DNA from: Mobula hypostoma | Lineage: Eukaryota | NCBI RefSeq assembly: GCF_963921235.1 | Contig: NC_086121.1 | Location: 30,752,001-30,816,000 of the forward strand | Direction: 5' to 3' | Length of the DNA stretch: 64,000 nt | Part shown: in pieces, positions 7,148-41,635 of the stretch | Layout: every line of letters begins with the position of its first letter | Position numbering within the stretch: the stretch's first letter is position 1 | The notes under the pieces: model-generated | Seen by the model: the letters and a program-made list of their open reading frames with translations, nothing else | What the model was told of the DNA's origin: nothing | The model's database searches: none | Made by a program: the position numbers and the translations under genes

Positions 7148-7668
7148 ATGGAGAATGGACGTGAAATCACAGAGGAACATCTGGAGAAATTTCTGAAATG
7201 CCCGTCCGCTGCTGTCATTACTGTGTGGTTGGGAACCTTTCAGAGGGTAGGCTTCAAAATCCCCGGCCTTGCCTGCTTTTGGCGACTGAGAAAGAGGTCG
7301 AATCGCTCGGACAGAGATGGCGCTCAGTACTCGGTGTCGGAGAGCTTATCAGAGCGCAAAGTTTTCGGATGACTCAGAGTTGGATTGTGGTCGGCATGGC
7401 AGGGAGAGTTTTTCTTCCCTCTCCCGACTGCGTGAGATGTGGGACATGTGAGAAACTTTGAACTTTACTGTGCTCACGGACTTTCTTCATCAAGTTATGG
7501 TATTGTGCACTGTTGTAACTATATGTATAATTATGTGGTTTTGTCAGTTTTTTCAGTCTTGGTCTGTCCTGTGTTTTGTGATATCACACCGGAGGAAATA
7601 ATGTATCATTTTTTAATGCATGCATTACTAAATGACAATAAAAGGGGACTATGTGTCTTCATAATCTA
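7148..7668 (+). mobile_element. Non-autonomous retroelement, family C ((ATCTA)n tail), 5'-truncated copy
   Basis: High similarity to 20464-21158, 21608-22271, 36730-37970 and 40838-41520; ends AATAAA-hairpin-ATAATCTA. Confidence 0.85.
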
Positions 7669-8009
7669 AAAAAAAACAAGGTCTAGGTTGTGAGTCACTA
7701 TGCCAGACAGCATGGAAACTGGTCCTTTGGCCCATCAGGTGCATATTGGCTGTCATGTACCTATTGATACTAATCCTGTTTTCCAGGACTAGGCACACAG
7801 CTTTCTTAAAGTGCTTATTTATCTCCTTCTTAAATGCCTCGGTCACCTAGTCATGAGGTCAGAATCAGAATCAAGTTTAATATCGTGGAATTTGTTGTCT
7901 TTGAAGCAGCAGCACAATGTAATACATAATAATAGATAGAAAAAATGTGAAAAAAGGTGAAATGTGAAGTACAGTAAGTATATGTACTTTTGAAGCAGTA
8001 AGTATATAT

Positions 8010-9207
8010 CCAACTCCTTCCAAAGAGTGGGACAGGTCCTAAAAAGCCAGCTGAATGGGCAGAAGAAGATCAGAGCCATCAATACATTCGCCCTACCAGT
8101 CATCAGATACCCAGCCGCAATAGTGTGCTGGCCAAGGAAGGAACTGGAAGCCGCTGTCATCAAGACATGGAAAGTATGAGCAATGCATGGAGGAGTCCAC
8201 CCAAAGTCCAACATCAAGCAACTGTACACCCACTCGAATAAAGAAGGCTGGGGACCTGGAAGTGCCAAGGCTGCAGTCCTGGAAGAAATGCAAAAAATCA
8301 TGAGTACATCAGGAAGATGGCCCTTAAGGACGACCTGCTAGGAGAATACCTCAGCCAGTAGGCAGGGGACATGGAAATGGAAGTGGGTGAAGCAAAGCCA
8401 GAGGACCAGAGGCCATGGCATGACAACCCACTGTAAGAGATATGCCATCATCAGGTATCAGAGGTGGCTGACATAAGAAAGTCCTACCTATGTCTGCAAA
8501 TAGCAGGGCTAAAGATGAACGCAGAGGCGCTGCTCATTTCTGCATAGGAACAGGTGCTGAGCACAAGGGCAATAGAAACAGGAGTCTATCACACCAGACA
8601 ACAGTCAAGATGCAGACCGTGCAAAGAATCTGCTGAAACCATCCAGCACATATTAGCAGGGTGCAAGATGCAAGCAGGGACAGCATACATTGGATGGCAC
8701 AACCAAGTTGCAGGAATTGTGTACAGGAACATCTGCACTGAGTATACTCATAAATCCAAATGGGAAACGCCTGAGCAGGTAGTGGAGAATGACAGAGCTA
8801 AGATCCTGTGAGACTTCCAAATACAGACTGATAACCAACCAACCAGACATAGTCATATTGGACAAGGAATAGAAGAAAGCGGAAGTAATAGAAGTGGAAA
8901 TCCCAAACGACAGTAACATCAGGAAGAAAGAATATGAGAAGCTGGAGAAATACCAGGGCTTGAAAGAGCAGATAGAAAGAATGTGGAAAGTTAAAGCCAG
9001 AGTAATCCCAGTGGTGATAGGAGCACTTGGAGCTGTGTCATCTGGACTGGGAGAGCGGCTCCAACAAATCCCGGGAACCGCATCTGAGATCTCAGTCCAG
9101 AAGAGTGCATTAATAGGAACTGAAAAGAAACTACACTGAACCCTCCAGCTCCCAGGCCTCTGGTAGAGGACCCGAGATTGAGGGAAAATACATGCACACC
9201 ACCCATA
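8010..9207 (+). mobile_element. R4/Dong (Rex6-like) non-LTR retrotransposon with restriction-like endonuclease, 5'-truncated pseudogene
   Basis: RT thumb remnant (QVLKSQLNGQKKIRAINTFALPVIRY), CCHC knuckle CRPCKESAETIQHILAGC, WHN (normally RHN), NQPDIV..EVEIP nuclease core, KLEKY and VIPVVIGALGAV. Contains stops and frameshifts. Confidence 0.9.
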
Positions 9208-9218
9208 ATATATATATA

Positions 9219-9253
<35 letters not shown>
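9208..9253. repeat. (TA)n(TG)n microsatellite
   Basis: Direct reading. Confidence 0.95.
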
Positions 9254-9254
<1 letters not shown>

Positions 9255-9529
9255 AAATAGTTAAATAGAATTAAATAAGTCATACCAAAATAGAAATTAA
9301 AAATTAGTGAGTGGTTGTGGTGGTCACGGGTTCAATGTCCATTCAGAAATTGGATGGCAGAGGGGAAGCGGCTGTTCTTGAATCATTGAATCAGGCTTTT
9401 GTACTTCCTTCCTGAGGGTAACAATGATAAGGGTGCATGACCTGTGTGATGGGTGTCTAATGATGGATGCCATTTTTCTGAGATATTGCTCCTTGAAGAT
9501 GTGCTTTCTAGATTATAACCACTCTTTGG

Positions 9530-9790
9530 CTGAATGAAATTCTTCCTCACGTACCTTTTAAATCTGCTGCACCATGTCTTAAGTATATGCTGTCTGGTTT
9601 TTGGCACTCTGCTGAGGGGATTTTTTTCCCATTATCTACCTTATCTACATCTCTCATAAGTTAGTATTCCTCAAAATGGTCCTCACTCAGCCTTCTCTCC
9701 AAAAATAAAAACCCAGCCTATCTAGCCTTTCCTTGCAGCTGAAATGCGTCACTCTCGGCAACATCCTTGTTGTTCTCTCAGGATCACTTA
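9530..9790 (-). mobile_element. Degraded CR1 3' fragment
   Basis: Antisense CR1 ORF2 C-terminal motifs (CTCAGCCTTCTCTCCAAA...GGCAACATCCTTG). Confidence 0.55.
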
Positions 9791-10152
9791 TTAGGCAATT
9801 ATACCACACCATGTGGGATTGGGCCAAAAAGTATAGGAGGTTTTCAGGTTCATTTTTTCCTCAACATTACATAGGCCAAATGTCAGTCATGTCATGGATA
9901 ATGCAATTGGGCTCAGCAGCCTTGGCCAGGGAGAAGAATTCAACATATCCATTGTCTCAATGTGCTTGCCAAGACTTGTCATCTGTTTTCTGGAGAAATT
10001 GAGAAAATGAAGGACATAATGTAAAACACATTTAACTAGATGCACCAACCCTTGCCTTGCCCATTTTTTTGGTCCTATTTCTCAGTCAATCTTCAGGCAG
10101 AGTAACACATAAGAACTTTGCTTGGTCAATGCTGCCTTCTGATGCCTACAAG

Positions 10153-10488
10153 AGAGTCATAGAGCCATAGCACACAGAAACAGCCCTTCAGTCCATCTAG
10201 TCCATGTCTACCATGAGACATCTATTCACACTAATCCCATTCTAATCTCCCCACATACACATCATCACTTCCAGATACCACCATTCAACTATACACTAAA
10301 CACTATTTACCGTGGCTAGTTAAAGTACCAGCTCACACCGATTTAGGAAACCGGAGTACCTGGTAGAAACTTACATAATCACAGGGAGGACATGCAAACT
10401 CCACATAGGCAGCACTGGTGATCAGGATTAATCTGGGGTTGTTGTAGCTGTGAGGCAGAAAATGTATCTGTTGCCCCACTATGCCACT
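10153..10488 (-). mobile_element. tRNA-derived V-SINE (HE1-like)
   Basis: V-domain GGAAACCGGAGTACCTGG...CAAACTCCACA in antisense, with a CR1-like tail. Confidence 0.7.
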
Positions 10489-10709
10489 CCGTCTATTGGG
10501 GGATCTACCCCCAACTTCTCCCTGAATATATTTTCCCCTGGATCCACACAGACACAACATAGAGTCTTAGAGGTTTACAACACCAAAAAGAACCCAGCGT
10601 TTCCATGCCAACCTTTTATGAAAAGATTATGAGAGAAGTAGTTTTGTGAGCTGTCTGGAGGATGTCGCCCTTGGTCGCCTTGTTCACTGGCATAATCTTC
10701 TTCCAGATT

Positions 10710-11200
10710 GGATATCAACCAATCCCTGTGCAAAAAGAATCCTTACTCCTAAGATTTCCTGCTTCTCACCTTGAACTATGCCCTCTTGTTTGCAATACTG
10801 TTACTATGGGGAAAAATATTTTGGCCATCTACCCTGACTATGCCTCTCATAATCTTACATCCTGATCCTTCAATCAGGTCAGCACTCAGCCTTGTCCGCT
10901 CCACTGAAAACATGTCAAGCCTAATCATTTGCTCACCATAACTATAGTCCTCCGATCCAGACATCTACAGCAATGGCAACTAATGTGACTTCACAAACTG
11001 CTATATTCACATCGGAGTCATTACTATATATCACAAACAGCAGTCCCAGCACCAATCCTGAGGTACATGACTAATCAGTAAAACATATTTCTGGATTATC
11101 CTCTGCCTTCTAACACAGGGATAATTTTGGATCCATTTAGCTGGTTTGCCCTGAATCCCATGACCATTAACCTGCTGGACCAGCTTACTAGATGGGACCT
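10710..11200 (-). mobile_element. Degraded CR1 RT/C-terminal fragments
   Basis: ORF remnants DKVPSSKLVQQVNGHGIQG..WIQN and YSYGEQMIRLDMFSVERTRLSADLIE. Confidence 0.8.
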
Positions 11201-12654
11201 TGTCAGGCATACAGTAGACTGTAGACCATACAGTAGACTGGGAGAGGCACGGAATTTGGACTTGCACTTGAGAGGAGTTGAACTAATATCAAGTTTCATG
11301 CATCAAACTGATCCCTAAGAATAACAGATGATTTAACCGCACAATTTACAGTACTCTAGGGCAGCTATTTATACTATAATGAAATAAATGTTGTGTCACC
11401 CTTCTGAAACCTTTTCATTCCTCGATTACATAGCTTCTAAAATTAGCTCAGTTTCAACAAGTACTGCGCAAGGGTCTCGAGAGGTACTCTGCAAGTGATA
11501 ACAAGTGACAGCGAGGTGATTTATGATGGGGTCGGTCACCTTATGTTGGTCTCCGTCTGATGTGAGCGAAACCTGAGAGTGAACAATAAGGACCATAACC
11601 GATTTATAATGAGGGGATCATTATGGAGTAATGGCTGTGTGTGTGTCTGAGAGTAGAGTGGGTACGTTACTGGAATAGCAATCTAGTTGCCGGGGCTGAG
11701 GATCTAGATTCATATATTGATAGTAGCTGTTGCATTTAAATTCAGTAAACAAAATTGTTCCTGGAATGATTTAGTGTGATAAGAACTAAAATTCTGCTAT
11801 TGTAAAAATAGTAGAGGGAAGCCCTTGTATACCTGGGTAGGTAATGGAACAAACTTAAGCTGACTTAGTGCCTGAACCCTGCTGGTTTAAAATACCTTAT
11901 GACATACAGAAGAATTTCAAAGAAGTCAATAATCTGTGTAGCCTTTATGTAGAGTGTCTGGATTCACACAAGTCATCAAAGGAGGTTAAGTTATGCAGTG
12001 GAACTATATATTGAATATAGATATAAAAATAGAAAACGAGCGAGCGATAGAGGGAGAGGAGAGAGCACAAGAAATAGATCATTTAAGCCTCTAAATTGCT
12101 CTTACCAATTTTAGCAGATGATCACAATGCTTTTCTGCTTTAATGTTTTTGTCTGCCGTTTTAGCAGGGATGTTAATTCACTTACAATGAAAAGATTATA
12201 CCGACACAAAAATAGCCAAGGAATGCCATACCAAAACGTGAGACCCACTAACATGGTCCATTGTCATTCCTGGATCAAAGACATGCCTAATTCTCTCCAA
12301 TCTGGTTGAAATACCTTGAACTTTGGTCTCAGAAATTCAGTGGCAAGAACGGACAACTTTTAACCACTAAGTACTCTAGTTAATTACTGGTAAGAAAATA
12401 TGGAAGTGATCAGCAAGAATTAAAATCTGAATTAAAATAGCTGACACAGAGTCCAAAGGTTGTCTGTGTTGCAGATCATTCTTAGTTGGAAATATATCCA
12501 ATCATCAAAGTTAGCGTACAAATATAACACAGTGTCAGTCCTTCAACATGCAGGCAGAAATCATTTAAGGCAGCTCACCATCGCTTTTTTCAAAGACAAT
12601 TAGGATTAGAAAATATATGTTTGCCTTGCGGCCCATCCTATGAATGAATGACTA

Positions 12655-14925
12655 AACATAGAACAGAGAACAGAACGAACAGCATGGGAACAGGCCCTTC
12701 AGCCCATTATGTCAGTACTGACCATGGCACCCGTCAAACTAATTCCATCTGCCTACACATAGTGAATATCTCTCTCTCTCTCACTGTCCTTGTCTGTTCA
12801 CCTGTCTGTCTTTTAAATTTTACTGTCATATATGCTCCTACCAGAACTCCTGTTTTCCAGCATTCCAGTTTATGCGTAAATAAATTTGCCTTTCAAATCT
12901 TCTTTAAGCTTTTTTTTTAACTTTCACCTTCAAAGTATGTCATTTGGTATGTAACATTTCCTCTCTGAGGAAAAGTCTCCATCTACCCAATCTACATCTC
13001 TCATAATTATACATATTTCTGTCAGGTCATCCCTCAGCCTCAGAGAAAACAATTCAAGTTTGTCCAACCTGTTCTTATAGCCAATACTCTCCAATCTCCA
13101 ATCAGGATCGTACAGGCCCTTCAATCCTTGATGTTGGACTGGTTTGTCTCTTTACCTGTTCTAAGATCAATCTAACCCTTCCCTCCAACATAACCCTCCA
13201 TTTTTCTATCATTCATGTGCCTATCTAAGAGTTACTTAAAAGCCTCTAATGTTTCTGTCTTTATCACTATCCCTGGCAGGATGCCCATACACCCACCACT
13301 CTCTGTGTAAAGGACTGACATCCCCCTATACTTTCCTCCAATCACCTTAAAATTATGCCCCCTAGTAATAGCCATTTCCGCCCTGGGATAAAGTCTCTGG
13401 CAATCTCTCTATCTATGCCTTTTATCATCTTGTACACCTCTGTCAAATCACCTGTCATCCTCTTTCACTCCAAAAAGAGAACCTCTCGCTCACTCAACCT
13501 ATCTTCATAAGACATGCCTTCTAATCCAGGCAGCATCCTGATGAATCTCCTCTGCACCTTCTCAAACGCTTTCACATCCTTCCTATAATGAGGTGACCAG
13601 AACTGAACACAATATTCCAGGTGTGGTCTAATAAGGCTTTTATAGAACTGCAACATTATCTCACAGCTCTTGCTCTCAATCCCCTTCTAATAAAGGCCAG
13701 CACTGTACACCTTCTTAACGACCCTATCAATTTACTCAGCCACTTTGGGAATCTATAGACGTAGAACCGAAGATCCCTCTGTTCCACCACACTGATAGAA
13801 TCCTGCTGTTAACCCTGTATTCGAACTTCCAAATTGAATCACTTCACACTTTTCTGGGTTGAACTCCATCTGCCACCTCCCAGCCCAGCTCTGCATCCTG
13901 CATCCTCCCATTGCAGTCTATAACAATCATTCACACCATTCACAACCCCACAAATCTTTCTTTTATCTGCAAACATATCAACTTCCTCATCTAAGGCATT
14001 CCAGAAGGTGCAGGTGTCCCAGAACAATTCTCTGAGGAGCAACACTGGTCACTGACCTGCGGGCAGAATACTCTCCATCTTCTGCTATTCTCTGCCTTTT
14101 ATGGACAAGCTAATTCTGTATATACCCAGCCAGATTTCCCAAGATCTCACGCCTCCAGACTTTCTGAGTAACCTTACCATGGAGAACCTTATCAAGCACC
14201 ATATACACCACTGTTCTACTTTCATCAATGTGCTTTGTCATCAATGTGCCCCTCACAAAGCCATGCTGACTATCTCCAATCAGACTGCGTTTCTCCAACT
14301 GCTTATAAATCCTGTCTCTAAGAATCATCTCCGATAATCTGCTCACCACTGAAATAAGACTTTCTGGTCTATAATTCCCAGGGTTATCCCTACTCCCTTT
14401 CTTGAGCAAATGAATAACATTTTCCTGCCTCCAGTCATCTGATACCACTCCCATGGCCAGAGAAGATGCAAAGATCATTGTCAAACATACAGCAATCTCT
14501 CCCCACATGTCCCATAGTAACCTAGGGTACATCTTGATAATTCTCTTCTGCAAACCTACTTCCAGAACAGTACACAATACTCCCAATGTGGCCTACCTAA
14601 TGTTTTATACAGCTGTAACATGATTTCTAGTCTTTATACTCAAATGTTCTGACTGATGGAGGCAAGTATGTTACATGTCTTCTTTTTTTGTGTTGTCATG
14701 CCTGCCAAGATAACTCTGTACCTCAATGCTGTTAGGTGTGCTGCCACTTGCTGTATACATTCCTCTTTCATCAGACCTCTCGAGGTCCAGTACCACACAC
14801 TTGTCTGGTATAAACTTCAAGTGATATTTCTCTGCCAACGAATCTCTATCCTGTTGTTTTCCCTGAGAACCTTCCTCACTATCCACATATCTACCAATTA
14901 TATAAAATATCATGTTTTCTGAAAC
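12655..14925 (-). mobile_element. Older CR1 (12655-13097 and 14530-14925) split by a nested CR1
   Basis: C-terminal remnant ESIGYKNRLDKLELFSL at 12930-13097 is collinear with the upstream remnant resuming at ~14530 (ORF 14671..14913). Confidence 0.7.
13100..14530 (-). mobile_element. CR1 LINE ORF2 (RT) pseudogene, nested
   Basis: [63 protein letters not shown]. Confidence 0.9.
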
Positions 14926-14998
14926 TTCCTAAGCCATATCAATTTCATTCAAATAATCCTTCCATAAATGTGCAATTTCCAGTGGTTACAACAATCTT

Positions 14999-15329
14999 GA
15001 GTTATTACAGTATAGGCTATTCAGCCCATTGAGTCCGTGCTGGCTCTCAGAGTATTCCCCTCAACGCCATTCCCCGACAGATTTCCTTGCAGTATATTAT
15101 TTCACATTAGCCCAATAACTGCCCCTTGATCCTCTTGCCACCCACTGCCAACTTACATCGGTCAACTAACTTTCTGGCACAAGTTTTAGATGTGAGAGGA
15201 AACCAGAGTATCTGGGAAAATCCTCATGGTGCTAGGGAGAATGAGCAAACTCCACACAACCAGTACATCTGGTTATGAATGAACCCATGTTGTTCAACTT
15301 GTGCACCAGCAGCTATAATTGCTGCACTG
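14999..15329 (-). mobile_element. V-SINE (HE1-like), degraded
   Basis: TGTGAGAGGAAACCAGAGTATCTGG...CAAACTCCACAC V-domain in antisense. Confidence 0.65.
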
Positions 15330-17690: not shown

Positions 17691-17719
17691 ATATTGTCTT
17701 TCCTCTTTCTCTCCAGCAA

Positions 17720-18160: not shown

Positions 18161-18221
18161 AATTCCTGCTGCACCTGCAACAAAGCTAAGTCTGAAATTT
18201 ATAATGGCATTAGCTTCTTTT

Positions 18222-18798: not shown

Positions 18799-19442
18799 GC
18801 TTATTTTGGGGCAATTTGTGGAAATGGGACCCGCTCTCGGGGCCTCATGACCAACCACTTTTCAATATGCCAAGGGTGTTGCCTACAAGACTAGCGTGCC
18901 TTCAGGGCGCAGGATTTTCGTGGCTCTGGAGGTGGGCGGATTCAAGGTTGGTACCGCTGCCTGTTGTGTCATGGGAGTACACGGAAGATCAAAAGCAGCA
19001 AGCTGGCTGCTGGCTGTGTGCCAAGAGACCCGAGTTCTTTGGGCGCAGGGCGCAGAACTCGGAAAAAAAGACGCAACAGACTTTTAGCACCATAAATCGG
19101 TGAGTTGTTTTGTTATGTCTCAACTTTCACTGTGAAGTGGGGACATATCTTTTTCCTTTATTAAGGAGAGAGAGAACACGTGGTATGTCGAATTACCGGG
19201 TGAACGAGTAGTCTTTGGGGTACTGCAAGTCTGTGTCTTTATTGATGCTTTGCTGCATGCCTGAGTGCTCAGTGGAGGGTGCTGATGCTTTTTTGCTGGT
19301 GAGGGAGGGGGGTTCGTCGCTTTGCTGCTGTTTGTGCGTGGGAGGGGGAACCTGGGGGGGGCTTCGGGGTTCTAACATTTAACTGTCATTCATTCTTTGG
19401 GGCACTCCTCTGTTTCCGTGGATGCTTGCGAAGAAAAAGAAT
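18799..19442 (+). mobile_element. Non-autonomous retroelement, family A, copy 2 (3' end truncated)
   Basis: Collinear similarity with 1032-1670. Confidence 0.75.
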
Positions 19443-19924
19443 TATCTGTTTATTTCCTGAGTCCATGGCAAATTTATCTAGTGAAAGCATTAATGAAGGT
19501 AGGAGAAATCCACAAGGATGGTCCCAAACTAATGTCTACTGAGGAAAAGGAAAGCCTCAAAATTTAACATCTTCTCTGGTTTTAAATGATTCTGCTTTTT
19601 TTCATGCCTGTTCTACATGAAGCTCACGCTGTAGACTGACCGCACTTTGTCTGACGAAAGTCTGTTCTTTAATCATTTATTTTTAATTTATTTATTAAGA
19701 TACAGTGTCGAATAGGCCCTTCCAGCCCTTTGAGCTGCGCCACCCAGCAATCACCTGGTTTAATCCTAGCCCAATCGCAGGACAATTTACAATGACCAAT
19801 TAGCCCACCTACCAGAATGCCTTTGGACTGTGGGAGGAAACCAGAGCACAGGGAAATCATACAAACTCCTTACAGGCAGTGGTGGGAATTGAACCTGGGT
19901 CAGTGGTACTGTAAAATGCTGTGC

Positions 19925-21381
19925 TGTCACGTGTCCAGCAACAATTGATATGAATTTGAGTCAGGTTATATAAACAAACAATGATATTTATTAACCTCTG
20001 CTCAAAACATTAAATAGTAAACGAACGACTAACTTAACCGGAAGTTAACAGTTAGGCGACTATGTCGAACGAACAGTCAAACTTGTAAACTGTTCTTAAA
20101 GAATTCTCATCCAAGCACAGACTTAAAGTGGTAAATTCAAAAGTCCATTTGATTTAAACAGACATTCAGGAGAGACTGCCTCAAAACAACAATTTCTTCG
20201 AAGTAATGACGATCTCAGCCGAGAGAAGCCTTGTCCGAAGGAATCACGAAGAAATAAAGGAGCTGACCTTTTGACTGGAGGGTGGTCACTGCATAAACCT
20301 TCCCGACCTTGCAGGGCTTTTACTCAAATGTGCATGCCACAATTCCTGAAAGAAGATTAAAAAGGTCGATCATTCCCAAGAAGCTGAAACGACATTAGCT
20401 TTATCCAATCTCTTGCTCGGATAACTCTGGTAATAACTTCACAATCCGATACTGGACTGTAAAGGGAGGGGAGGGGAGGAGAAGATGGTGGCGCGATGCA
20501 GTGTGTGCGGCCACTCCGAAATGATATCGGTATTTGTTAAGTAGGTTCCGTGCACAATCCTGATTTGATGGAGACAGACGTGAGAAGCACGGAGGAACAC
20601 CTGGAGAAACTTCTGAAATGCCTGCTTCGCTGCCGCTGCTACTGTGCAATCGAGAATCTCCGGTGGGGGAAGGTCCCAAATCCTCGGCTTTGCCTATTAA
20701 CCGCTGCCAGGTCCAGGGTTGAAGCGCTGGGAAGAGATGGTGCTCGGCGCTCGGTGTCGGAGGGCTGGTCAGAGGCTCAAAGTGTTTGGACGGACTCAGG
20801 AGTCGGCTGTGGTCGGGTGCTTCCAGGGTGCTGCATCGGCAAGTTTGGGGTGCTGGAGGTTCAAGGCAGGGAGAATTTTTCTTCCTTCTACCGTCTGCGT
20901 GAGGTGATGGGACTTTCGAGAGACTTCGGGACTTTTTTTTACCGTGCCCATGGTCTGTTCTTTATCAAATTACGGTATTGCTTTGCACTGTTGTAACTAT
21001 ATGTTATAATTATGTGGTTTTTGTTAGTTTTTTAGTCTTGGTTTGTCTTGTGTTTCTGTGATATCATACTGGAGGAACATTGTATTATTTCTTAATGCAT
21101 GCATTACTAAATGACAATAAAAGAGGACTACATGTCCTCATAATCTAATCTAAATCTAGAGGAAAACAAAGGTGCAACAAACAAAAATTGGCAGTGGTTG
21201 GCGAAATTGCCGGCAACAACGTTACACTCACTCAAAATAAAAATGAGAACTGCGTTACCATGGTGGGCTTTTTCTTTTATACCATACCATCACGTGACAT
21301 CACATCACCCCATTATCACAAGGCCATTACATCATTCCAATAGCATGACACCATTACATCATGCTCACGGGGTATGTAACA
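19925..21381 (-). mobile_element. Solo LTR (Gypsy/ERV-type) with 4-bp TSD, containing a family C insertion
   Basis: TGTCAC...GTAACA termini; GTGC duplicated at 19921-19924 and 21382-21385; minus-strand TATAAAA near 21276-21282 and AATAAA at 19987-19992. Confidence 0.85.
20464..21158 (+). mobile_element. Family C element, full length
   Basis: GGAGGAGAAGATGGTGGCG 5' end, AATAAA, GAGGAC-TACAT-GTCCTC hairpin, (ATCTA)n tail. Confidence 0.9.
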
Positions 21382-21607
21382 GTGCTAACTATTATGCTAC
21401 AGGGCCACCCCATTCTTGCACCTAAATTCAGGACTCCTTACCCAAACTATACTGAAGATTGCTTCGCTGCTCACCACTATCATCTTAAGGACAATTAAGG
21501 GTGGGCAAATTATGAAGATTTCACCAATGGTAGCCATGACAAGTAAATAAATAAAATAAAAAATTAAGTATACTGTACTAACTCAATATACTGTACTTCT
21601 CCTCAAA

Positions 21608-22271
21608 GGAGGAGAAGATGGCGGCGCGACGCAGCGCACAGCGGCCACTCCGGCGAATGATACCTGTTATCTGTCAAGTAGGGTGCCGTGCACAATCCTG
21701 ATTTGAAGGAAACAGATGTGACAGCACGGAGGAACATCTGGAGAAACTTCTGAAATGCCTTCTTCGCTGCCACTGCCACTGTGTGGTCCAGAATCTCCGG
21801 AGGAGAAGGCCCCGAGTCCTCGGCTTTGCTTGTTGCTTGGCGGCCGGGGTGGGGTCGAAGCGCTCGGCAGAGACGGTGCTCGGTGCTCGGTGTCAGAGGG
21901 TCGAAGTTTTCGGATAGACTCAGAGTTGGCTGTGGTCGGGTGCTTCCAATGCATTGGCAGTTGTCAGCGCCTGGAGGTTTATGGCAGGGAGAGTTTCTCC
22001 CTTTTGCCACTTGCTATCGGGACTATCGGGAGTCGATGGGAACATTGAGTCTTTTTTTTTACTGTGCCCATGGTCTGCTCTTTATCAAATTATGGTATTG
22101 CTTTGCACTGCTGTAATAATATGTTATAATTATGTGGTCTTCTCAGTTTTAGTCTTCGGTTTGTCCTTTTTTTTTGTGATATCACTCTGGAGGAACATTG
22201 TATCATTTCTTAATGCATGCATTTCTAAATGAAAATAAACGAGGACTGACTGTCCTCATAATCTAACCTAA
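21608..22271 (+). mobile_element. Family C element, full length
   Basis: GGAGGAGAAGATGGCGGCG start; hairpin 22241-22257; ATAATCTAACCTAA tail. Confidence 0.9.
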
Positions 22272-25219: not shown

Positions 25220-25832
25220 TACAACTAGGGCTTTTCTCTTTGAAGAAAAGGAGGAAGAGAGGTGACTGGATAGAGATACATAAGGTTATAAGAGACATAG
25301 AAAGAGCGGTCAGCCAGCAACTTTTTCCCAGGGCAGCAATGGCTAATATGAGAAGGCATAATCTTAAGGTGGTTAAAGGGGGTGGAAAAGGTGGGTTTTT
25401 TCATACTGAAAGTGGTAAGTATGTGGAACGCACTACTGGAGTAGAGGCATATACATTAGAGACATTTAAGACATTCTTAAATTGTCATATGGATAAAAAA
25501 TGGATGACAATAGGGGAGGGAAGAACTAGAATGATCTTCAAGATCTTCCTTGAGATTTTTTTTACCGTGCCCATGGTCTGCTCTTTATCAAATTATGGTA
25601 TTGCTTTGCACTGTTGTAACCATATGTTATAATTATGTGGTTTTTGCCAGTTCTAGTCTTGGTCTGTCCTGTGTTTCTGTGCTATCATACTGGAGGAACA
25701 TTGTATCATTTCTTAATGCATGCATTACTAAATGACAATAAATGAGGACTGGGTGTCCTCATAATCTAAAAAAGTAGGTTAAATGATTGGCACAACATTG
25801 TGGGCCAAAGGGCCCGTACTGTGTCGTTCTGT
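25220..25832 (+). mobile_element. CR1 3' fragment interrupted by a family C 3' piece
   Basis: QLGLFSLKKRRKRGDWIEIHKVIR. The CR1 3'UTR resumes at ~25773 (GTAGGTTAAATGATTGGCACAACATTGTGGGCC). Confidence 0.85.
25551..25768 (+). mobile_element. Family C element, heavily 5'-truncated
   Basis: 3' ~220 nt with hairpin 25744-25760 and ATAATCTA. Confidence 0.9.
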
Positions 25833-31679: not shown

Positions 31680-31790
31680 AAAAGAAATAAAACATTCTCA
31701 TTTAAATTCATCATTTCAGGATCTCTCAAAGCGCTTTCAGCCAATGCAGGACATTTGAAATGTAGCCACTGTTGTAATGTAAGAGTCACT
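31680..31790 (-). mobile_element. Deu-domain SINE 3' fragment
   Basis: CAAAGCGCTTTCAGCCAATG...TGTAGCCACTGTTGTAATGTA. Confidence 0.7.
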
Positions 31791-33135: not shown

Positions 33136-34972
33136 GTCATCAATTGTTAACACAGAATAAAAATGGCAACGAACTTCGGAATCCAGATTTGTTCAAAAAA
33201 TATAAGGTGAAAGCCCTTAAGAAGATGAAGATAAAGAAGTATTCTTTTGCCTCAAGTAACATAAAATCAATAATTAATCACAGGTCCACACAGGTGTTTA
33301 TGCACCACACACCGACCCCCATACTTGATACATTTCACTCTATCTGTTCCTTTTTTTCCTTGGGATTTTATTATACAAGTTGTAAGTGCATCCTATACAT
33401 TATATGCTGTATACACAACAGTCCCATATTTTGGTGGGTTCCAGATTCTGACCACTACATATTCAGATACTGTATTATTTATATATTTCTAAATGCAACC
33501 AAAGTCCAGGTGTGGATCCAAGTTTATTGGTGTTTGTCTCAGGAGTGTCTCTTCTCCTGCAGCTCACAGATTCTGAAAACTTCCTTAATTAGCTTCATGG
33601 AAGTCTATCCTTTCACTTTAGTGAAACCACCATCCCCTGACAAGACGTAATGGGAGTAATTCTCAGAACAGGATAGAACACGGGGCTTTGTCTCACAGGA
33701 TCATTCAACGAAACACATTTTGATACCCAAACCATCTCCCAGAGGAGACAAAAGTACTAACAGAGGAGAAAAAGGAATCCAAGTGAGGCACGTTCAGCTG
33801 GAGTCAAGTGAGCACAGTATGAATCCAAATGGACCTACAAGTTACAGCCCCTCTTGTTCTCATCCAAAACTGCAAGCAAGGTGAAGCTATTCCAGCTGCC
33901 AAATATATCTTCCTTCAAAACATGCACAGCAGCATACTATAAGCCCTGATGTACTTTGGTAAATTTACCAGCATATCTGATAGTTTCTACTTATACTAAT
34001 ATTCATTAGTGACAATGAAATGATAATGAATGAGGGGAACGAGGAATTCATATGTAAATACTTGTTCATAACAAAATAAAAACTCTACTGAAATAAACTG
34101 GATTAATCGGGGCCAGGCTGAAAATGAGCCTCAAACAGTTCACTATAGTTTAGGCTCAGGTTTCTAGTAATGGCAGATCTGTATGTTTGACCAGAAACCT
34201 GAGCCCATACTCAGGAAAAACTTGGCATCTGGGCAGGCTTTTCTTGTTTGCTACTGACTCAGCAACTTTGGGCGAGGCTTCCAATTCGCCAAGGTAGGGT
34301 TAGCTTAGGCCAAGCCCAAGAAGAAAACTGAATCGAGGCCAGTTCCCACATTCCTTTTACCTTGTTAACCCTCCCACTGATCCATTAGTTTGTGTACAGT
34401 AAATCCTCTCACACACTGGAAGCCATTTGAAAGCCTATGACAGATAGGGGCATGTCAGACAGGGTTTGTCCTCTTAGATTTTCTATTTGAGAGTTAGCCA
34501 AGAACAACGCTTGCTATAGAAGTTACGCTGCATGCAAATATCACAGTAAGCTACTGTAATATCATTGAGACTTGTTAATTCCACTCTCTCAATGCTCTCA
34601 GGCAATGCAAACTAATCTGACTGGAATACCCCCCACCCCCACCATCCTATTTTCTCTTTTTCTCCAATGTGCAGCTTGTCTCAAATTCAATCTTAGTGTC
34701 TGAGTAAATTAGAACATATTTGCTTACAAAATTTCATCAGGTTTCAAACATCCCCAAACCGTGTCCTCCCCGACCCACCAGCATTGGAAGGTGAGGTGGT
34801 CGTGGTGTTGGTGGTGTTCTGCACAGTAGTAAAGAGCAGGAAATTGGACTAATTTAGCAGCTCCGTCATCTGAATTAAACTAAACCCTCTTCCAGTTGAT
34901 TTACGATACAAACATATTGGTCTTGGGATCTTACTAGTCCACATAGCTCAATTGAATTTACTAAAAAAAAAC

Positions 34973-35487
34973 ATGACTTGGTTTGACAACTGCTCTGCCC
35001 TTGACTCCAAGAAACTGCAGAGCGTTGTGAAAACAGCTCAGTACATCACGGAAAACAGCCTCCCCTCCATGAATTCTGTCTATGTTCCTTGCTGCCTCAG
35101 CAAAGTAACCAGCATGATCAGAGATCCCATCCATTCCAGACATTCTCTCTTCTCAACCCTCTCATTGGACAGAAGATGCTAAAGCCTGAAATAATGTACC
35201 ATCAGGCTCAAGAGCTGCTTCTACCCTTAGATTGTTGAATGTTTTCCTTGTACGATAAGATGGACTCTTGACCTCAAAATCTACCTCATTGTGACTTGCA
35301 GCTTACTGTCTACCTTCACTGCTCTATCTCTTTACTGTAACACTTTATTCTGCACTCTGTCATTATTTCGCCGTGACCTACCTCAGTGCATTGTTGTATT
35401 ACATTGATCTGTATGGACATTATGCAAGACAAGCTTTCCACTGTACCTTCCTACCTGTGACAGTAGTAAATCAACTTAACCAACTTA
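34973..35487 (+). mobile_element. Rex1/Babar LINE 3' fragment
   Basis: TWFDNCSALDSKKLQSVVKTAQYIT..IRDPIH..LFSTL. Confidence 0.85.
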
Positions 35488-35749
35488 GCAGAGCTTCTAC
35501 AATATATGATGGTCAGGGTTATTTTTTAATTAGCCAATAACTGTTTGTCTTCCTTGTCGAATAATAAAATTGTTGCCTTTCAGGTAATTTCTTTTCTGTG
35601 TTAATATAAACTAGACATGACAGACTTGCAGCTCCAAAGCCAGAACACATATGATGATTGACCCACCAGTCCAACTCATGCTGGATCTGTCACTGGGTTT
35701 AGACTTGATCTATAAGGCTCTGAACTATTCTGGAAGCCAAGTGAAAATC

Positions 35750-35920
35750 AAAACAAAAATGCAGTTGCTAAAATATCTAACCTAAAAGCAGGCAATGCTG
35801 GAAATACTCGGCAGGTCAGGCAGCATCCGTGGGAAGAGAATCGGACTCAGAACTTGCAAAGAGTCTTTGATCTGAAGCATTGACTCCTATTCTCTTCACA
35901 CAAATATTGCTTGAGCAGTT
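35750..35920. mobile_element. Short inverted PLE-terminus element
   Basis: ATGCTGGAAATACTCGGCAGGTCAGGCAGCATC followed by a degenerate inverted arm. Confidence 0.6.
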
Positions 35921-35988
35921 CAGGCCAATAAGACAGGTATATTCAAACAGATAGAGGGAGGAATATCTGAAATCCATGCAACTATTGT

Positions 35989-36215
35989 GGGCATCACCGT
36001 GGCGTAGCGGTTAGCGTGATGCGATTACAGCGCCTATGACCCGTGTTCAAACCTGTAAGTAGTTTGTGATTTCTTCCCCTGACTGCACGGGTTTTCTGGG
36101 TGCTCTGGTTTCCACCTACGTTCCAAAAATGTACAGGTTAGTAAGTTAATCAGTCACATAGGTTTAATTGGGCGGTGAGAGCTCATTGTGCTGTATCTCT
36201 AAAAACAAATTAAAC
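35989..36215 (+). mobile_element. V-SINE (HE1-like)
   Basis: tRNA head TGGCGTAGCGGTTAGC..GTTCAAA; V-domain GGGTGCTCTGGTTTCCACC. Confidence 0.75.
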
Positions 36216-36729
36216 TACATGCTGTTATCTGGTCAACTGAATCCATGAAGGCATTCAGTATTTTCAAAGGTACTCATATTACCAACTGACACCCACGATG
36301 CCCAGACTGAGAGAAATCTTTTAGCAACAAAAAAAAACTCCATGTCTTCACTGCATCTACTTTTGGAATCACCTCAATGTGGCAATGGATTTCTACATTT
36401 TTCAATTACTCAAGCAGCAAAAATGGTAAAGAAAACTAAAGTCCAAATCAATTCCAATCCTGATCCTTTTGTATGAGGAACGACAGGTTGGAAAGACTTG
36501 GAACACCTCACTTAAATCTGTCTGTGATCTTCAACGCAGACATTAAGATAATAACATCACCATTATGATTTCCAAATTTTGACCTGTTTCCCCAAAATCT
36601 AAAATCTTACAGTCTACTCCAGGAACAGCCTGGAAGAACCTTCGATTCCCGGATTAAGTGGTTTCCTGACTTCTAGATTCACTTCAGGATAGAAGTTAGG
36701 CCCAGAGTGCAGGACTCTCTCAAAAAGTT

Positions 36730-37970
36730 GGGAGGAGAAGATAGCAGCACGACGCAACGCGCGTAGCTCTCCGGTGAAATGATATCGTATTTAGAAACAT
36801 ATAGAAACATAGAAAATAGGTGCAGGAGTAGGCCATTCGGCCCTTCGAGCCTGCACCGCCATTTATTATGATCATGGCTGATCATCCAACTCAGTACCCC
36901 GCTCCAGCCTTCCCTCCATATCCCCTGATCCCCGTAGCCACAAGGGCCATATCTAACTCCCTCTTAAATATAGCCAATGAACTGGCCTCAACTGTTTCCT
37001 GTGGCAGAGAATTCCACAGATTCACCACTCTCTGTGTGAAGAAGTTTTTCCTAATCTCAGTCCTAAAAGGCTTCCCCTTTATCCTCAATCTGTGGCCCCT
37101 CGTTCTGGACTTCCCCAACATCGGGAACAATCTTCCTGCATCTAGCCTGTCCAATCCCTTTAGGATTTTATACGTTTCAATCAGATCCCCCCCTCAATCT
37201 TCTAAATTCCAACGAGTACAAGCCCAGTTCATCCAATCTTTCTTCATATGAAAGTCCTGCCATCCCAGGAATCAATCTGGTGAACCTTCTTTGTACTCCC
37301 TCTATGGCAAGGATGTCTTTCCTCAGACTAGGGGACCAAAACTGCACACAATACTCCAGGTGTGGTCTCACCAAGGCCTTGTACAACTGCAGTAGTACCT
37401 CCCTGCTCCTGTACTCGAATCCTCTGATTTGATGGAGACAGACATGAGAAGCAGAGGAACATCCGGAGAAATTTCTGAAATGCCCGGTTTGCTGCCGCTG
37501 CTACTGTGCGATCGAGAATCCCCGGAGGGAAGGCCCCAAAATCCCCGGCTTTGCCTACTGCTGGCGACCGAGGCTGAGGTCGAAGCGTTCGGCAGAGATG
37601 GTGCTCGGTACTCGGTGTCGGAGGGCTGATCAGAGCTGGAAGTTTTTGGACGACTCAGAGTCAGACTGTGGTCGGGCATGGCAGGGAGAGTTTTCTTCCT
37701 TCTCCCGTCTGTGTGAGATGTGGGACTTTTGAGAGACTTTGAACTTTTTTACTGTGCCATGGCCTGTTCTTCATCAAGTTATGGTATTGTTGCACTGTTG
37801 CAACTATATGTTATAATTTTATGGTTTTTGTTAGTTTTTCAGTCTTGGTCTGTCCTGTGTTTCTGTGATATCACACCAGAGGAATATTGTATCATTTCTT
37901 AATGCATGCATTACTAAATGACAATAAAAGAGGACTGCGTGTCCTCATAATCTAACATAATCTAATCTAA
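36730..37970 (+). mobile_element. Family C element, full length, interrupted by a CR1
   Basis: 5' end at 36730-36792; body resumes at 37424; hairpin 37930-37946; tail ATAATCTAATCTAA. Confidence 0.9.
36792..37425 (-). mobile_element. Young CR1 3' fragment
   Basis: [32 protein letters not shown] and DRLDAGRLFPMLGKSRTRGHRL..FFTQRVVNLWNSLP; one frameshift in a G run; (CTATGTTT)n tail. Confidence 0.95.
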
Positions 37971-38539
37971 GTGAGCAGAGCACCCAGTAAGGTTCCAAAT
38001 CAAGCAGGCCAGTGGGTTGCCATGTTAAATCATATGTCTCTTGTTGGCTAGACGTTCCTAGTGTCTTTATACAATCCATTACCACAAAGCAGTTTTCCCT
38101 TACTGCCTGCACATCTTTAAGGGGTTAGGTCACTTCTAGGTTGGGAAAAGGTCATGTTATATTGACGGTAAATGGATTAACAATAAATTTATGTGTGCTT
38201 CATGGGATCTGCTGAAATGTTTTATCCTTTGTCTTTGCCCTTACATTAGATTATGTACTTGTTGGGTAGGGTGCGGGGAATCCAGGTAAGATGAGCCACT
38301 GCTTAACTTATTGTATATTAGAGCATCAATAAAGAGTTAGTTTAGTAAATGCACTCAGGTCCCTCTGAACACATTGGACAGCATTGGACATCAACACACA
38401 GTCTTGGTGGAACTGTAGGAGATTGGCATTCTCAAAGGAACAACTGGTGTGCACAAGGAGATCTAAAAGATTCACGGCACTGACCGAAAGGAGCCAAAAG
38501 TTATCTTGACAACACAGAAGTAAGAGAACATATTCTCTG

Positions 38540-38682
38540 CTCATTTATTTCCTGCTTATGTGCACATTGGTTATAAGATTAGCTTTAATGGTCACAATGA
38601 CGCCATCATTAAAAGGTTGGAAAATGCTTTAGGACATTCCCAGGATGAGGTAAGTCATTGTATAGTGCCAACATTGTCTTTC
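38540..38682 (+). mobile_element. Old Deu-domain SINE 3' fragment
   Basis: AAATGCTTTAGGACATTCCCAGGATGAGG...GTCTTTC. Confidence 0.4.
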
Positions 38683-40041
38683 CCAGCCCTGCCTTGAAAT
38701 ACATGGAATTCCAATATTAATGATATGACCAGGGAACCGATGCTCTGAAAAACATACCTTAACAATATATGATGCATCTGACATCACACAGTAGGTTAAT
38801 AATGTGTAAAGGCATTCAGCTGAAATTCATCCTTCCACATTTTATCAGAGGCATTAACATGATCCTCACGAGAAATACCTTGTAATTATATTCTGAACTG
38901 CGATGTTTATCTGATAGTTACTGATTCACCTCTTTGACAATACTGTTGATACTTCATTAAGTTTTATTCACGTTCTGAAGTGAATATTTTAACGAATAAC
39001 CAGTGAAGCTGGCAGGTTTATGGGCATCATCCTTCGTTGCTCTCTCTACAATATTTTACTTTCGATCTAATTGGTGCTCCTTTCATGGCTGTCCTCGCAG
39101 AAAGAGATAGCTGAACCAGTACCCCCACAGGCTAGAAGCACTCATTATATCGATCCCAGTAAAGGGCCTCAACCCCAAGCTTCAGGGAGCAGTCTTGCTC
39201 CACTTGGGTGCAATTCCAATATGAATACTTGCCATTTTTGTGGCCTCTCTAAATATGATTGCCAACTTGATGTCAATTAATACTGAATTATGGGCAGTTT
39301 CAGAGATGGATCTACACCCACACAACCACCCCAAACACAGTTCAATTCAGATCCTTACAGCCAGTAGACAGAGCAGAGTCTTCCACAAATCAGTCTAGCC
39401 GCGATTCAAAGCCAAGAGCCTGAGCCATGAGGGCAGTGTTCCAACCCACCAAGTCACCCAACCCCTCATAATTTTCCTTCCCAACTTTCTACACTGAAGG
39501 CATTTTTTTTTCAATACTTGCAAGCAAAATGCACACTAGATTTGAAAAAGTTCCCGACTCCTGGAAAATGGTTGTAAGCTAAAGCTTGTTTTCTTCGGAC
39601 TCGACAGCAGGGAACTGTCCAGTGTGACGGAATTGGGAAAAGTCCGTAGAATGCAAGGGGATGATTGAACGTGGTGAAGAAAGCATGACAGGCAGTGGGG
39701 AAATGATCCGAGAAAGCATTCCGTTGACCGCCCCTGTGCCAGTAGCAGCTGTTCTGCACCCGTCCCTCTCATCACAGTTTAATACATTTAATGTTATTTT
39801 AAATCTCCCTTTTTTTTTCAGTCACCTCCATCTGCTCTGGAGGTTGCAATGGCCCTTTTGTTGAGCCTCATTTAGTGTTTTTGTTCAAACAACAGAGAGG
39901 GGAAACTCCGATGAATGCCTTTTGTATAGAATTACAGAGAGTTCCTCTGCAGGGACAGGCTATTCGGCCCTACTGCACTGTAATACTCCTCTCCGACTTC
40001 CAACTGTCAAGCATCTACATTCATAGTGAAATCTCAAAATA

Positions 40042-40581
40042 GACTCAGTGGCCACTTTATTAGGTGAGGAGATATCTGATAAAGTGGCTCCTGAGTGCAT
40101 TTCTGTATATCTGTGGTCTTCTGATGCTGTAGCCCATTTACTTCAAGGTTTGACGTGTTCGAGCGATGCTCTTCTGCACACCACTGTTGTGATGCATGGT
40201 TATCTTTCTGCCATCTTGAACCAACCTGGCTGTTCTCGCTCTGGCCTCTCTCATTAACAAGGTGTTTTCACTCAGAGGGCTGCCAGTCACTGGACACTCT
40301 TTTGTTTATTGCCCCATTCACTGTAAACTCTAGAGGGCAGTGCGTGAAAATCCCAGGAGGTCAGTATTTTCTGAGACACTCTAACCATCCTGTCTGAACC
40401 AGCAATCATTCTATGGTCAAAGTCACATAGATCCTATTTCTTCACCATTCTTTCCAAGCAACAACTGAATCTCTTGACCACGTATGCATGTTTTTATGCA
40501 ATGAGTTGCTGCCACGTGATTAGCTAAATAGATATTTGTATTAATGAGCAGGTGTACGGGGTACCAAACAAAGTGACACTG
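40042..40581. mobile_element. Tc1/mariner-type non-autonomous DNA transposon
   Basis: TA + (C)ACTCAGTGGCCACTTTATTAGG left TIR; right end GGTACCAAACAAAGTGACACTG; internal inverted copy ATAAAGTGGCTCCTGAGTG. Confidence 0.8.
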
Positions 40582-40749
40582 TCCTCTTTGATACTCTAAC
40601 CCAGTAAATCCTTGAATAATAATAATCCTAAACAGTGTTTGATTCCTCCCAGTAGCATGCTATTAACTGGTTAGAATATATAGTCTTAAAATTACAATCA
40701 CTTCCCTTCTCGCTGGGCCCTAATAGTATCTCAGGTTCTTATAAATCAA

Positions 40750-41635
40750 TGGCAAAATTGACTGCTCTAAAACTTGTGAATAATTTATGTTCAATTTATG
40801 TTTCTTGTGAATATTTATGTTTTATGTTTCTCGTGAAGGAGGGGAGGAGAAGATGGCGGCGCGACGCAGCGCACGCGGCCGCTCCAAATGATATCGTATT
40901 TGTGAAGTAGGATGCTGTGCACAATCCTGATTTGATGGAGACAGCCGTGAAGAAGCACGGAGGAACATCTGGAGAAACTTCTGAAATGCCTGTTTCGCAG
41001 CCGCTGCTACTGTGCGATTGAGAATCTCCGGAGGGGAAGGCCCCAAATCCTCGGCTTTGCCTATTGCTTGTTGCCGGGGCTGGGGTCGAAGCGCTCGGCA
41101 GAGTTGGTGCTCGGTGCTCAGTGTCGGAGGGGTGGTCGGAGGCTCGAAGTTTTCAGACGGACTCAGAATCGGACTGTGGTTGGGGTGCTTCCAGGATGCT
41201 GCATCGGCAAGTTTGCGGCGCTGGAAGCTCATGGCAGGGAGCTTCTCCCTTCAACTGTCTGCGTGAGATAATGGGATTTTCGAGAGACTTTGAGACTTTT
41301 TTTTACGTGCCCATGGTCTGTTCTTCATCAAATTGTTTTGCACTGTTGTAACTATATGTTATAATTATGTGGTTTCTGTCAGTTTTTTCAGTCTTGGTTT
41401 GTCTTGTGTTTCTGTGATATCATTCTGGAGGAACAAATTGTATCATTTCTTAGTGCATGCATTACTAAATGACAATAAAAGAGGACTGCGTGTCCTCCTA
41501 ATCTAATAATCTAATCTAATATTGTTTATATGCTGCTTTGGGCTTGTGATCCTGCTGCTACAAAGTTTTTCATTCCACCTGTGCATACAGGTACTTGCAT
41601 ATATGACAATAAACTCAACTTTGACTTGAACTTTG
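40750..41635 (+). mobile_element. Rex-type 3' tail split by a family C element
   Basis: TTTCTCGTGAA | TATTGTTTATATG continuity across the insertion; tail ATGACAATAAACTCAACTTTGACTTGAACTTTG. Confidence 0.6.
40838..41520 (+). mobile_element. Family C element, full length
   Basis: GGAGGGGAGGAGAAGATGGCGGCG start; hairpin 41481-41497; (AATCT)n tail. Confidence 0.9.

What the first reader, a model, noticed from the sequence alone, without database searches (positions are those of the whole stretch)
7148..41520. Family C: six co-oriented copies of a ~0.65-kb retroelement with no tRNA head
Seen: copies at 7148, 20464, 21608, 25551, 36730 and 40838. Four share the same 5' end (GGAGGAGAAGATGGCGGCG; AAGATGGCGGC is a YY1-type motif, intact at 21615 and 40850). 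Two are 5'-truncated, and all end in AATAAA, a hairpin and (ATCTA)n, with no TSD. The 5' half is CpG-rich, so the family is young. It has inserted into an LTR, a CR1 and a Rex tail. It shares CCGGAGGAACA and AATGA.AAT with the Rex-type tail at 5165-5288. Inference: a short LINE-dependent parasite with an internal Pol II promoter, probably a 5'UTR+3'UTR deletion derivative of a Rex/L2-group LINE. This is the best candidate for an undescribed system in the window.
Basis: partly seen in the sequence, partly recalled or inferred. Interest (0 to 1): 0.7.

Follow-up and report, generated by a model that had tools for sequence, protein, structure and literature searches.

The report
Promoter-headed mini-parasite of Rex1/Babar LINEs
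The six look-alike stretches are copies of an abundant, 0.63-0.69-kb, non-coding repeat whose front and back resemble the two ends of a fish-type LINE jumping gene in the same genome, so it is likely a cut-down passenger moved by that LINE's enzyme: a known design, but from a LINE group not listed as producing it in the papers searched.

Summary
Real family: six + strand copies (four with the head, two 5'-truncated, one split by a later insert). Genome-wide at least 15,457 copies (exact tails), about 44,000 by sampling, on both strands equally, so co-orientation is local. The 5' end is fixed; 30 of 30 head-anchored loci are short; 0 of 60 tail-anchored loci continue into a LINE coding end. No tRNA, A box or conserved ORF; 4-6 T runs argue against Pol III. 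The first ~255 nt align to the 5' end and first codons, and the last ~190 nt to the 3' UTR, of one single-ORF APE-RT LINE (Rex-A; Rex1/Babar label recalled); ~210 nt between are unassigned. A second LINE (Rex-B) shares the 14-nt head motif and the (AATCT)n tail. No near-identical parent was found. Not very young (5-7% non-CpG divergence). The 'Rex tail' at 5165-5288 belongs to a sister non-coding family; a third sister lies at 1026 and 18814. Verdict: bipartite non-autonomous LINE derivative from a clade missing from Kojima's 2018 list. The scan met this family before on other DNA (e1-9978481). Dfam and Repbase could not be searched.

The parts
7148..7670 (+). Copy 1, 5'-truncated (starts ~nt 95), short subfamily lacking a 47-nt segment; one tail unit
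20464..21158 (+). Copy 2, full length, long purine head; inserted in a ~770-bp solo LTR with a 2-3 bp duplication
21608..22271 (+). Copy 3, full length, subfamily with the AATAAACGAGG tail variant; YY1-type motif at 21615
25551..25770 (+). Copy 4, 3' ~220 nt only, inside a CR1-type 3' end
36730..36792 (+). Copy 5, head piece
36793..37423 (-). CR1-type 3' fragment that later inserted into copy 5 (not part of the family; label recalled)
37424..37970 (+). Copy 5, remainder (short subfamily)
40838..41519 (+). Copy 6, full length, reference copy
40838..40863 (+). Head: purine run + AAGATGGCGGCGCG; these 14 nt equal the first bases of LINE Rex-B; holds the YY1 core GCCAT on the other strand
   Evidence: YY1 core from PMC11602158
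40855..41090 (+). Approximate region homologous to the 5' UTR and first ~55 codons of LINE Rex-A
41091..41300 (+). Approximate middle segment with no source found; carries the 47-nt subfamily indel
41301..41477 (+). Approximate region homologous to the Rex-A 3' UTR, ending in a predicted stem-loop and AATAAA
41478..41519 (+). GAGGAC/GTCCTC hairpin (not seen in the LINEs sampled) and (AATCT)n terminal repeat shared with Rex-B
4976..5282 (+).
1026..1713 (+). Sister family D, 5'-truncated copy
18814..19443 (+). Sister family D, copy truncated at both ends

Best explanation
Family C is an abundant non-coding 0.63-0.69-kb repeat whose two ends align to the two ends of a single-ORF LINE of the same genome, and it is likely an old internally deleted derivative of a Rex1/Babar-type LINE that is likely copied in trans by Rex proteins. 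Shown: fixed 5' end, bipartite homology, no ORF shared by subfamilies, 5'-truncated copies, variable (AATCT)n tail, absent or very short target duplications. Inferred: RNA polymerase II starts 8-17 nt upstream of the YY1-type motif (as YY1 positions the start of human L1); the full RNA ends at AATAAA, hairpin and terminal repeats; a Rex APE-RT binds the 3' stem-loop, nicks DNA and reverse-transcribes from the terminal repeat; the short unit is often finished, so 62% of copies keep their promoter and can found new subfamilies. The parent is likely a diverged or extinct relative of Rex-A; Rex-A or Rex-B would supply the enzyme.
For: Family profile positions 20-256 hit the Rex-A 5' end 18-289 (E 6.6e-7) and 471-655 the Rex-A 3' UTR (E 1.9e-6) in a 4-kb test set, reversed controls none. 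Local-composition shuffles: head vs Rex-A 5' z 4.0-6.0, tail vs Rex-A 3' z 5.1-7.9, cross pairs z <= 0.4. Search of 369 sequences, 1.52 Mb: after removing family copies, 30 of 39 head hits fall in the 30 Rex-A 5' loci and the top tail hits are Rex-A 3' UTRs. Of 188 Rex C-terminal tails, the 45 top-scoring rows printed are all of Rex-A type. Rex-B begins with the same 14 nt and ends in the same (AATCT)n. 30 of 30 head-anchored loci reach the tail within 0.54-0.69 kb; 37 of 60 tail-anchored loci reach the head and none continues into a LINE coding end. No tRNA, no Rfam hit near a gathering score, no A box, 4-6 runs of 4 or more T per consensus. Sister family E has the same build and also hits Rex-A 5' (E 1e-5) and Rex tails (E 3e-11).
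Against: The homology is weak (about 60-65% with gaps; 15-26 bits; the tail score carries strong composition bias) and would not be significant in a whole-genome search; the Rex-A hits are copies of one family, not independent, and Rex-A loci were over-represented in the searched set by my own fetching. The first 80 nt alone give only z 1.7-3.6. About 210 nt have no source. The terminal repeat and exact head match Rex-B while the body matches Rex-A, so no single parent explains all. No transcription start was measured. One copy's frame matches TIAM2 protein. The Rex1/Babar name for the LINEs is recalled; database names did not state it.
Confidence: 0.75

Rival explanations
1. Composite retroposon: a Rex-type tail (and perhaps head motif) joined to captured host sequence, the candidate being a TIAM2 mRNA piece spanning an exon junction at nt ~80-270.
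For: Copy 2 frame 20541-20993 hits Pfam Tiam_CC_Ex (E 1.4e-4, below cut-off; 1 of 72 frames scanned) and PDB TIAM2 3a8p (E 5.2e-6, residues 6-68); the c2 consensus scores 54 against a shuffle maximum of 37; the middle 210 nt are unassigned.
Against: DNA alignment to this genome's spliced TIAM2 is not significant (z 1.1-1.9) while the same bases give z 3.4-5.5 with Rex-A; nhmmer, blastn and tblastx find nothing on the Tiam loci; the continuous frame depends on indel states rare among 78 copies; no TIAM protein among the 14 hits at E <= 0.001 in 1.84 billion proteins (sequences of 9 of the 14 viewed).
Confidence: 0.1
2. Recent simple deletion product of a still present, unsampled Rex family whose ends are near-identical to family C.
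For: The genome holds many Rex families (148,545 PF09004 candidates; varied tails) and only two 5' ends were traced.
Against: 0 of 60 tail-anchored and 0 of 30 head-anchored loci belong to a long element; none of 211 Rex tails carries the family's hairpin tail as its own. This bounds such a partner at roughly 5% of exact tails, not zero.
Confidence: 0.08
3. Ordinary Pol III SINE with an unrecognised small-RNA head and a Rex tail.
For: A tRNA-headed SINE paired with a Rex1 LINE is tabulated (SINE2-5_NV with Rex1-24_NV, PMC3747384); a one-mismatch B-box-like word lies at nt ~245, and one exact word at nt 442 in the 3-copy subfamily.
Against: No tRNA or Rfam match, no A box, B-like words far from the 5' end, several T4-T8 runs inside the unit, head homologous to a LINE 5' end.
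Confidence: 0.04
4. Rex-derived in sequence but moved by another LINE (CR1, L2 or L1/Tx1).
For: CR1-type elements are abundant in the window; a purine run plus YY1 site also opens mammalian L1 (recalled; YY1 role in PMC11602158).
Against: No poly(A) tail or long TSDs as L1 makes (established knowledge); the 3' stem-loop and terminal repeat are of Rex type.
Confidence: 0.03

Closest known systems
Bipartite ORF-absent non-autonomous LINEs (Bov-A, RTESINE1/2, WALLSI3, RIME, NARTc, Vingi-1_EE derivatives, R2 derivatives; Kojima 2018, PMC5786205, passages and section 23 read)
   Same: Only the 5' and 3' parts of a LINE, keeps the extreme 5' end, no small-RNA head, no protein, presumed Pol II transcription.
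   Different: That paper lists only RTE, Ingi, Vingi and R2 as sources; here the source is Rex1/Babar-type. The ends are only ~60-65% like the nearest LINE found, ~210 nt are unassigned, and the head is a YY1-type motif; a ribozyme was not seen by Rfam.
tRNA- or 5S-headed SINEs with Rex-type tails (SINE2-5_NV/Rex1-24_NV; salmonid Hpa I, SlmI, OS-SINE1 with RSg-1; table in PMC3747384, passages; RSg-1 as Rex1/Babar is recalled)
   Same: Non-autonomous, LINE-derived 3' tail with terminal microsatellite.
   Different: Family C has no tRNA/5S head or A box and has internal T runs.
Rex1/Babar LINEs (PMC6274825, passages: APE, RT, conserved 3' UTR followed by an oligonucleotide repeat of variable length)
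   Same: 3' UTR homology, 3' stem-loop, variable terminal repeat, 5' truncation.
   Different: No coding capacity; 0.65 kb against 3.15 kb for full-length Rex-B.
HE1 SINE / HER1 LINE of sharks and rays (table row in PMC3747384)
   Same: LINE-dependent short retroposon of cartilaginous fish.
   Different: HE1 is tRNA-headed and paired with HER1; family C is not.

Membership tests
Bipartite ORF-absent non-autonomous LINE | 5' part homologous to the 5' end of a LINE | tested here: met
   nt 20-256 vs Rex-A 18-289, colinear from the start; weak
Bipartite ORF-absent non-autonomous LINE | 3' part homologous to the 3' end of the same LINE | tested here: met
   last ~190 nt vs Rex-A 3' UTR; terminal repeat matches Rex-B instead
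Bipartite ORF-absent non-autonomous LINE | Consists solely of the two LINE parts (clean internal deletion) | tested here: inconclusive
   ~210 nt without a source in 1.52 Mb; parent not found
Bipartite ORF-absent non-autonomous LINE | Amplified as a fixed short unit | tested here: met
   30 of 30 head-anchored loci short; four subfamilies
Bipartite ORF-absent non-autonomous LINE | No encoded protein | tested here: met
   ORFs of 87-162 aa occur but frames disagree between subfamily consensuses; no RT or endonuclease domain in copy frames
Bipartite ORF-absent non-autonomous LINE | Pol II transcription from its own 5' end; mobilised by the parent LINE's protein | not testable with these tools
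   Only contigs available, no start sites; no assay
Pol III SINE (tRNA/5S/7SL head) | Small-RNA-derived head with A and B boxes | tested here: not met
   (box patterns recalled)
Pol III SINE (tRNA/5S/7SL head) | No internal T4+ terminators | tested here: not met
   4-6 runs per consensus
Solo LTR / MITE | TG...CA ends or terminal inverted repeats, fixed-length TSD | tested here: not met
   Variable microsatellite 3' end, 5' truncations, no fixed TSD
Rex1/Babar clade (for LINEs Rex-A and Rex-B) | APE + RT, conserved 3' UTR, terminal oligonucleotide repeat | tested here: met
   the endonuclease region was recognised by eye and from Pfam labels on homologues
Rex1/Babar clade (for LINEs Rex-A and Rex-B) | RT phylogeny with named Rex1/Babar references | not testable with these tools
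   No named references held; homologues are fish RT + PF09004 proteins without clade names; the PF09004-Rex link is recalled
A described Dfam/Repbase family | Full-length match to an entry | not testable with these tools
   Libraries not available

The most novel reading that the evidence does not exclude
Rex1/Babar LINEs are a fifth LINE clade that spawns ORF-less bipartite parasites, and do so repeatedly: families C, D and E (each tens of thousands of copies by sampling) form an unannotated class of Pol II-driven, YY1-headed 'SINEs without a small-RNA head'. Since Rex-A and Rex-B start their single ORF within ~5-105 nt of the 5' end, the rule behind the biased list of clades may be 'LINEs without ORF1', not 'LINEs with a 5' ribozyme'.
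Probability: 0.45. Interest if true: 0.6.

Novelty: new variant of a known kind. Interest (0 to 1): 0.42.

Why it matters
Kojima 2018 (PMC5786205, section 23) states that only RTE, Ingi, Vingi and R2 were reported to give ORF-less bipartite derivatives and leaves open whether this is sampling bias or a requirement of transcription (three of the four have 5' ribozymes). A high-copy Rex-type case with a promoter-motif head, plus two sister families, speaks to that question and offers a testable alternative (absence of ORF1). Practically, some 44,000 CpG-rich inserts with a promoter motif, a predicted splice acceptor and a poly(A) signal are candidates for regulatory co-option and mis-annotation, and are phylogenetic markers shared by at least five coded organisms.

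Tried and rejected
tRNA/Rfam head: none. Direct partner sharing both ends: not among 30 head-anchored, 60 tail-anchored or 40 best-hit places; a genome-wide linked search for a Rex coding end followed by the family's tail was not achieved, so the bound is by sampling only. Rex-B as sequence parent: only the 14-nt head, the AATAAA stem and the terminal repeat are shared (z -0.5 to 3.7). TIAM2 capture: protein-level hint not backed at DNA level. Coding constraint: no clear codon-position pattern in 40 copies (weak test, since post-insertion changes are neutral anyway). Host gene explaining the strand run: no non-repeat Pfam domain in 72 of 129 long frames scanned; short exons would be missed. 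Expression: no RNA holder listed; four contig runs laid, no start sites obtainable. Literature: no description of this family or of bipartite Rex derivatives in searches (listings only, apart from the papers named); one batoid genome preprint gives class-level repeat totals only (passages). Supplements of Kojima 2018 were not opened and could list a Rex-derived case.
Full report
Observation. A self-comparison of the window finds six related stretches at the stated starts, all on +, read out and aligned. Copies 2, 3, 5 and 6 begin with a purine run and an AAGATGGCGGCG-type motif; copies 1 and 4 are 5'-truncated. Copy 5 is split by a ~630-bp minus-strand CR1-type 3' fragment (label recalled). 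All end in AATAAA, a GAGGAC/GTCCTC hairpin and ATCTA units. Copy 2 sits in a ~770-bp solo LTR; 11 other copies of that LTR give the empty site, which shows a duplication of only 2-3 bp.

Genome-wide picture. The genome is 3.48 Gb. Two mutually exclusive 31-nt tail words occur 11,925 and 3,532 times, evenly on both strands, so at least 15,457 copies exist. In 552,696 bases fetched for other reasons there are 7 copies, about 44,000 genome-wide (Poisson range about 18,000-91,000). The run of six + copies is local (p = 0.03); the next copy, 2.3 kb beyond the window, is on -. All 30 loci picked by an exact head reach the tail within 0.54-0.69 kb. Of 60 loci picked by an exact tail, 37 reach the head and none continues into a LINE coding end (the query was the last 145 residues of Rex-A; L082 is a truncated copy lying inside a Rex ORF that resumes behind its tail, with an apparent 4-bp duplication). 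78 near-full copies fall into four subfamilies (46, 15, 13, 3 and one outlier), 5-7% from consensus outside CpG and 16-19% at CpG; samples are biased to well-kept copies. The 5' end is sharp: the 8 purines before the motif are kept in most copies, and similarity fades 12-17 nt upstream of the ATG (87 copies). Anchored target duplications of 6 bp or more occur in 17 of 77 copies against 3.3 expected from shuffled flank pairs; several are tail-like words and local composition may inflate the count. Near-identical sequence occurs in runs of five coded organisms at 28-70% of words and a sixth at lower share, where contigs cover nearly the whole unit.

Not a Pol III SINE. ARAGORN finds no tRNA in the window; Rfam gives only four matches far below gathering scores around copy 6. 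Consensuses have no A box, a one-mismatch B-like word at nt ~245, and 4-6 runs of four or more T, which by established knowledge stop Pol III. ORFs of 87-162 aa exist in the GC-rich head but frames disagree between subfamilies.

The LINE relatives. PF09004 gives 148,545 candidates; the 30 loci fetched belong to one family, Rex-A, ending in a stem-loop, AATAAA and (GACTT)n. Its 5' end was traced: a ~105-nt leader, then one ORF that runs into an endonuclease-like region. A second family, Rex-B, was found through its (AATCT)n tail and walked to its 5' end: 3.15 kb, beginning with AAGATGGCGGCGCG, whose ATG opens its ORF. Its RT is related to fish RT + PF09004 proteins, up to 80% identical. The name Rex1/Babar rests on architecture (PMC6274825, passages) and on my recall of the PF09004 link; no named reference could be aligned.

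Bipartite homology. Of 188 Rex tails in the fetched DNA, the 45 top rows printed are of Rex-A type. Testing the other end of that same family, profile positions 20-256 of family C match Rex-A 18-289 (E 6.6e-7, 17 bits) and positions 471-655 match its 3' UTR (E 1.9e-6, high composition bias), with no reversed-sequence hits. Shuffles that keep local composition give z 4.0-6.0 for head and 5.1-7.9 for tail, and 0.4 or less for crossed pairs. In a search of 1.52 Mb, 30 of 39 non-family head hits lie in Rex-A 5' loci at the expected place, and the middle 205 nt hit nothing below E 2. These hits are copies of one LINE family and the scores are modest; the argument rests on both ends pointing, colinearly, to the same lineage. 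Rex-B shares the exact 14-nt head and the terminal repeat but little else. The parent is therefore likely a diverged or lost relative, or the ends were exchanged.

Sister families. A head-motif scan found family E (~830 bp, 6,305 first-look candidates) and the window's other pair is family D (~830 bp, 8,479 candidates). Both have a defined head with an ATGGCG motif, no RT-sized ORF and a microsatellite tail. E hits Rex-A's 5' coding region (E 1e-5) and Rex tails (E 3e-11); D's tail resembles another Rex tail only weakly (E 0.04). The window's 5165-5288 tail is E (E 5.6e-29). In the same 553 kb, D and E each have about four copies.

A side lead. One frame of copy 2 matches TIAM2. Host Tiam exons were fetched. 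DNA similarity is not significant, the frame is continuous in few copies, and a search of 1.84 billion proteins returned 14 hits, those viewed being translations of the element itself or a repeat protein. I rate capture at about 10%.

Mechanism. Shown: fixed start, LINE-like ends, truncation, variable tail, little or no TSD. Inferred: Pol II initiation set by the YY1-type site (YY1 core GCCAT and its role at the L1 start: PMC11602158, abstract start and passages), binding of the 3' stem-loop (predicted fold) by a Rex protein in trans, and target-primed reverse transcription from the terminal repeat. Sampled Rex-A and Rex-B copies are ~3% from consensus, so they overlap or postdate the family's activity; the sampling biases differ.

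Comparison. The design is that of bipartite ORF-absent non-autonomous LINEs. Kojima 2018 (PMC5786205; passages and section 23) names only RTE, Ingi, Vingi and R2 as sources and calls the cause unknown; Kojima 2020 (PMC7245038, passages) describes such elements as common for RTE. tRNA-headed SINEs with Rex1 tails are tabulated (PMC3747384, passages). Searches showed no bipartite Rex derivative, but Repbase and Dfam, where such entries would lie, were not searchable. An unreviewed AI note on another piece of this genome reached the same reading (e1-9978481), seen after my own tests; it is not independent support.

Verdict. Real, abundant, most likely a Rex1/Babar-derived bipartite parasite: a new variant of a known kind, interest 0.42.

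Noticed in passing
window 1026-1713 and 18814-19443; L342-L366: Family D: ~830-bp non-coding repeat with a GC-box-like and ATGGCG head and a tail weakly like another Rex family; about 4 copies in 553 kb.
   Followed up: partly
window 4976-5282; L099:5310-6130; L317-L341: Family E: ~830-bp older (82% to consensus) non-coding repeat with an AAGATGGCG head, a Rex-A-like coding remnant and a Rex-type (ACTTGA)n tail.
   Followed up: partly
L256:3695-6843; L257-L286: LINE Rex-B has almost no 5' UTR: the ATG inside the YY1-type motif at its first bases opens the single ORF, followed by a hydrophobic stretch.
   Followed up: partly
L213:2087-3031 (-): Rex-B RT is 76-80% identical to teleost proteins (e.g. 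Prochilodus magdalenae, Seriola dumerili), high enough to suggest horizontal transfer.
   Followed up: no
window ~40908-40915 (copy 6) and proteins P0002-P0012: Predicted proteins in public collections enter the element at about the same place near nt 70, just after an AG, as if by a splice acceptor; several are fused to host-like N-termini. Real exonisation or gene-prediction artefact.
   Followed up: no
window 20541-20993 (+): Weak protein match to TIAM2 (Pfam E 1.4e-4, PDB E 5.2e-6), not supported at DNA level.
   Followed up: yes
L347, L309, L131, L027: Four family C copies begin 33-75 nt behind the coding end of different Rex fragments in the same orientation; more than expected by a rough estimate.
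   Followed up: no
window, whole: All nine C/D/E copies and 12 of 16 Rex-type tail words are on +, while 3 of 4 CR1-type tail words are on -; no host exon was found to explain it.
   Followed up: partly
window ~19920-21385; L372-L382: ~770-bp solo LTR family (TGT...ACA ends) hosting copy 2; 291 first-look candidates.
   Followed up: partly
L125 (~4300-5500), L009 (~3200-3450): Tandem arrays made from the last codons of a Rex ORF (units of about 70 and 28 bp).
   Followed up: no
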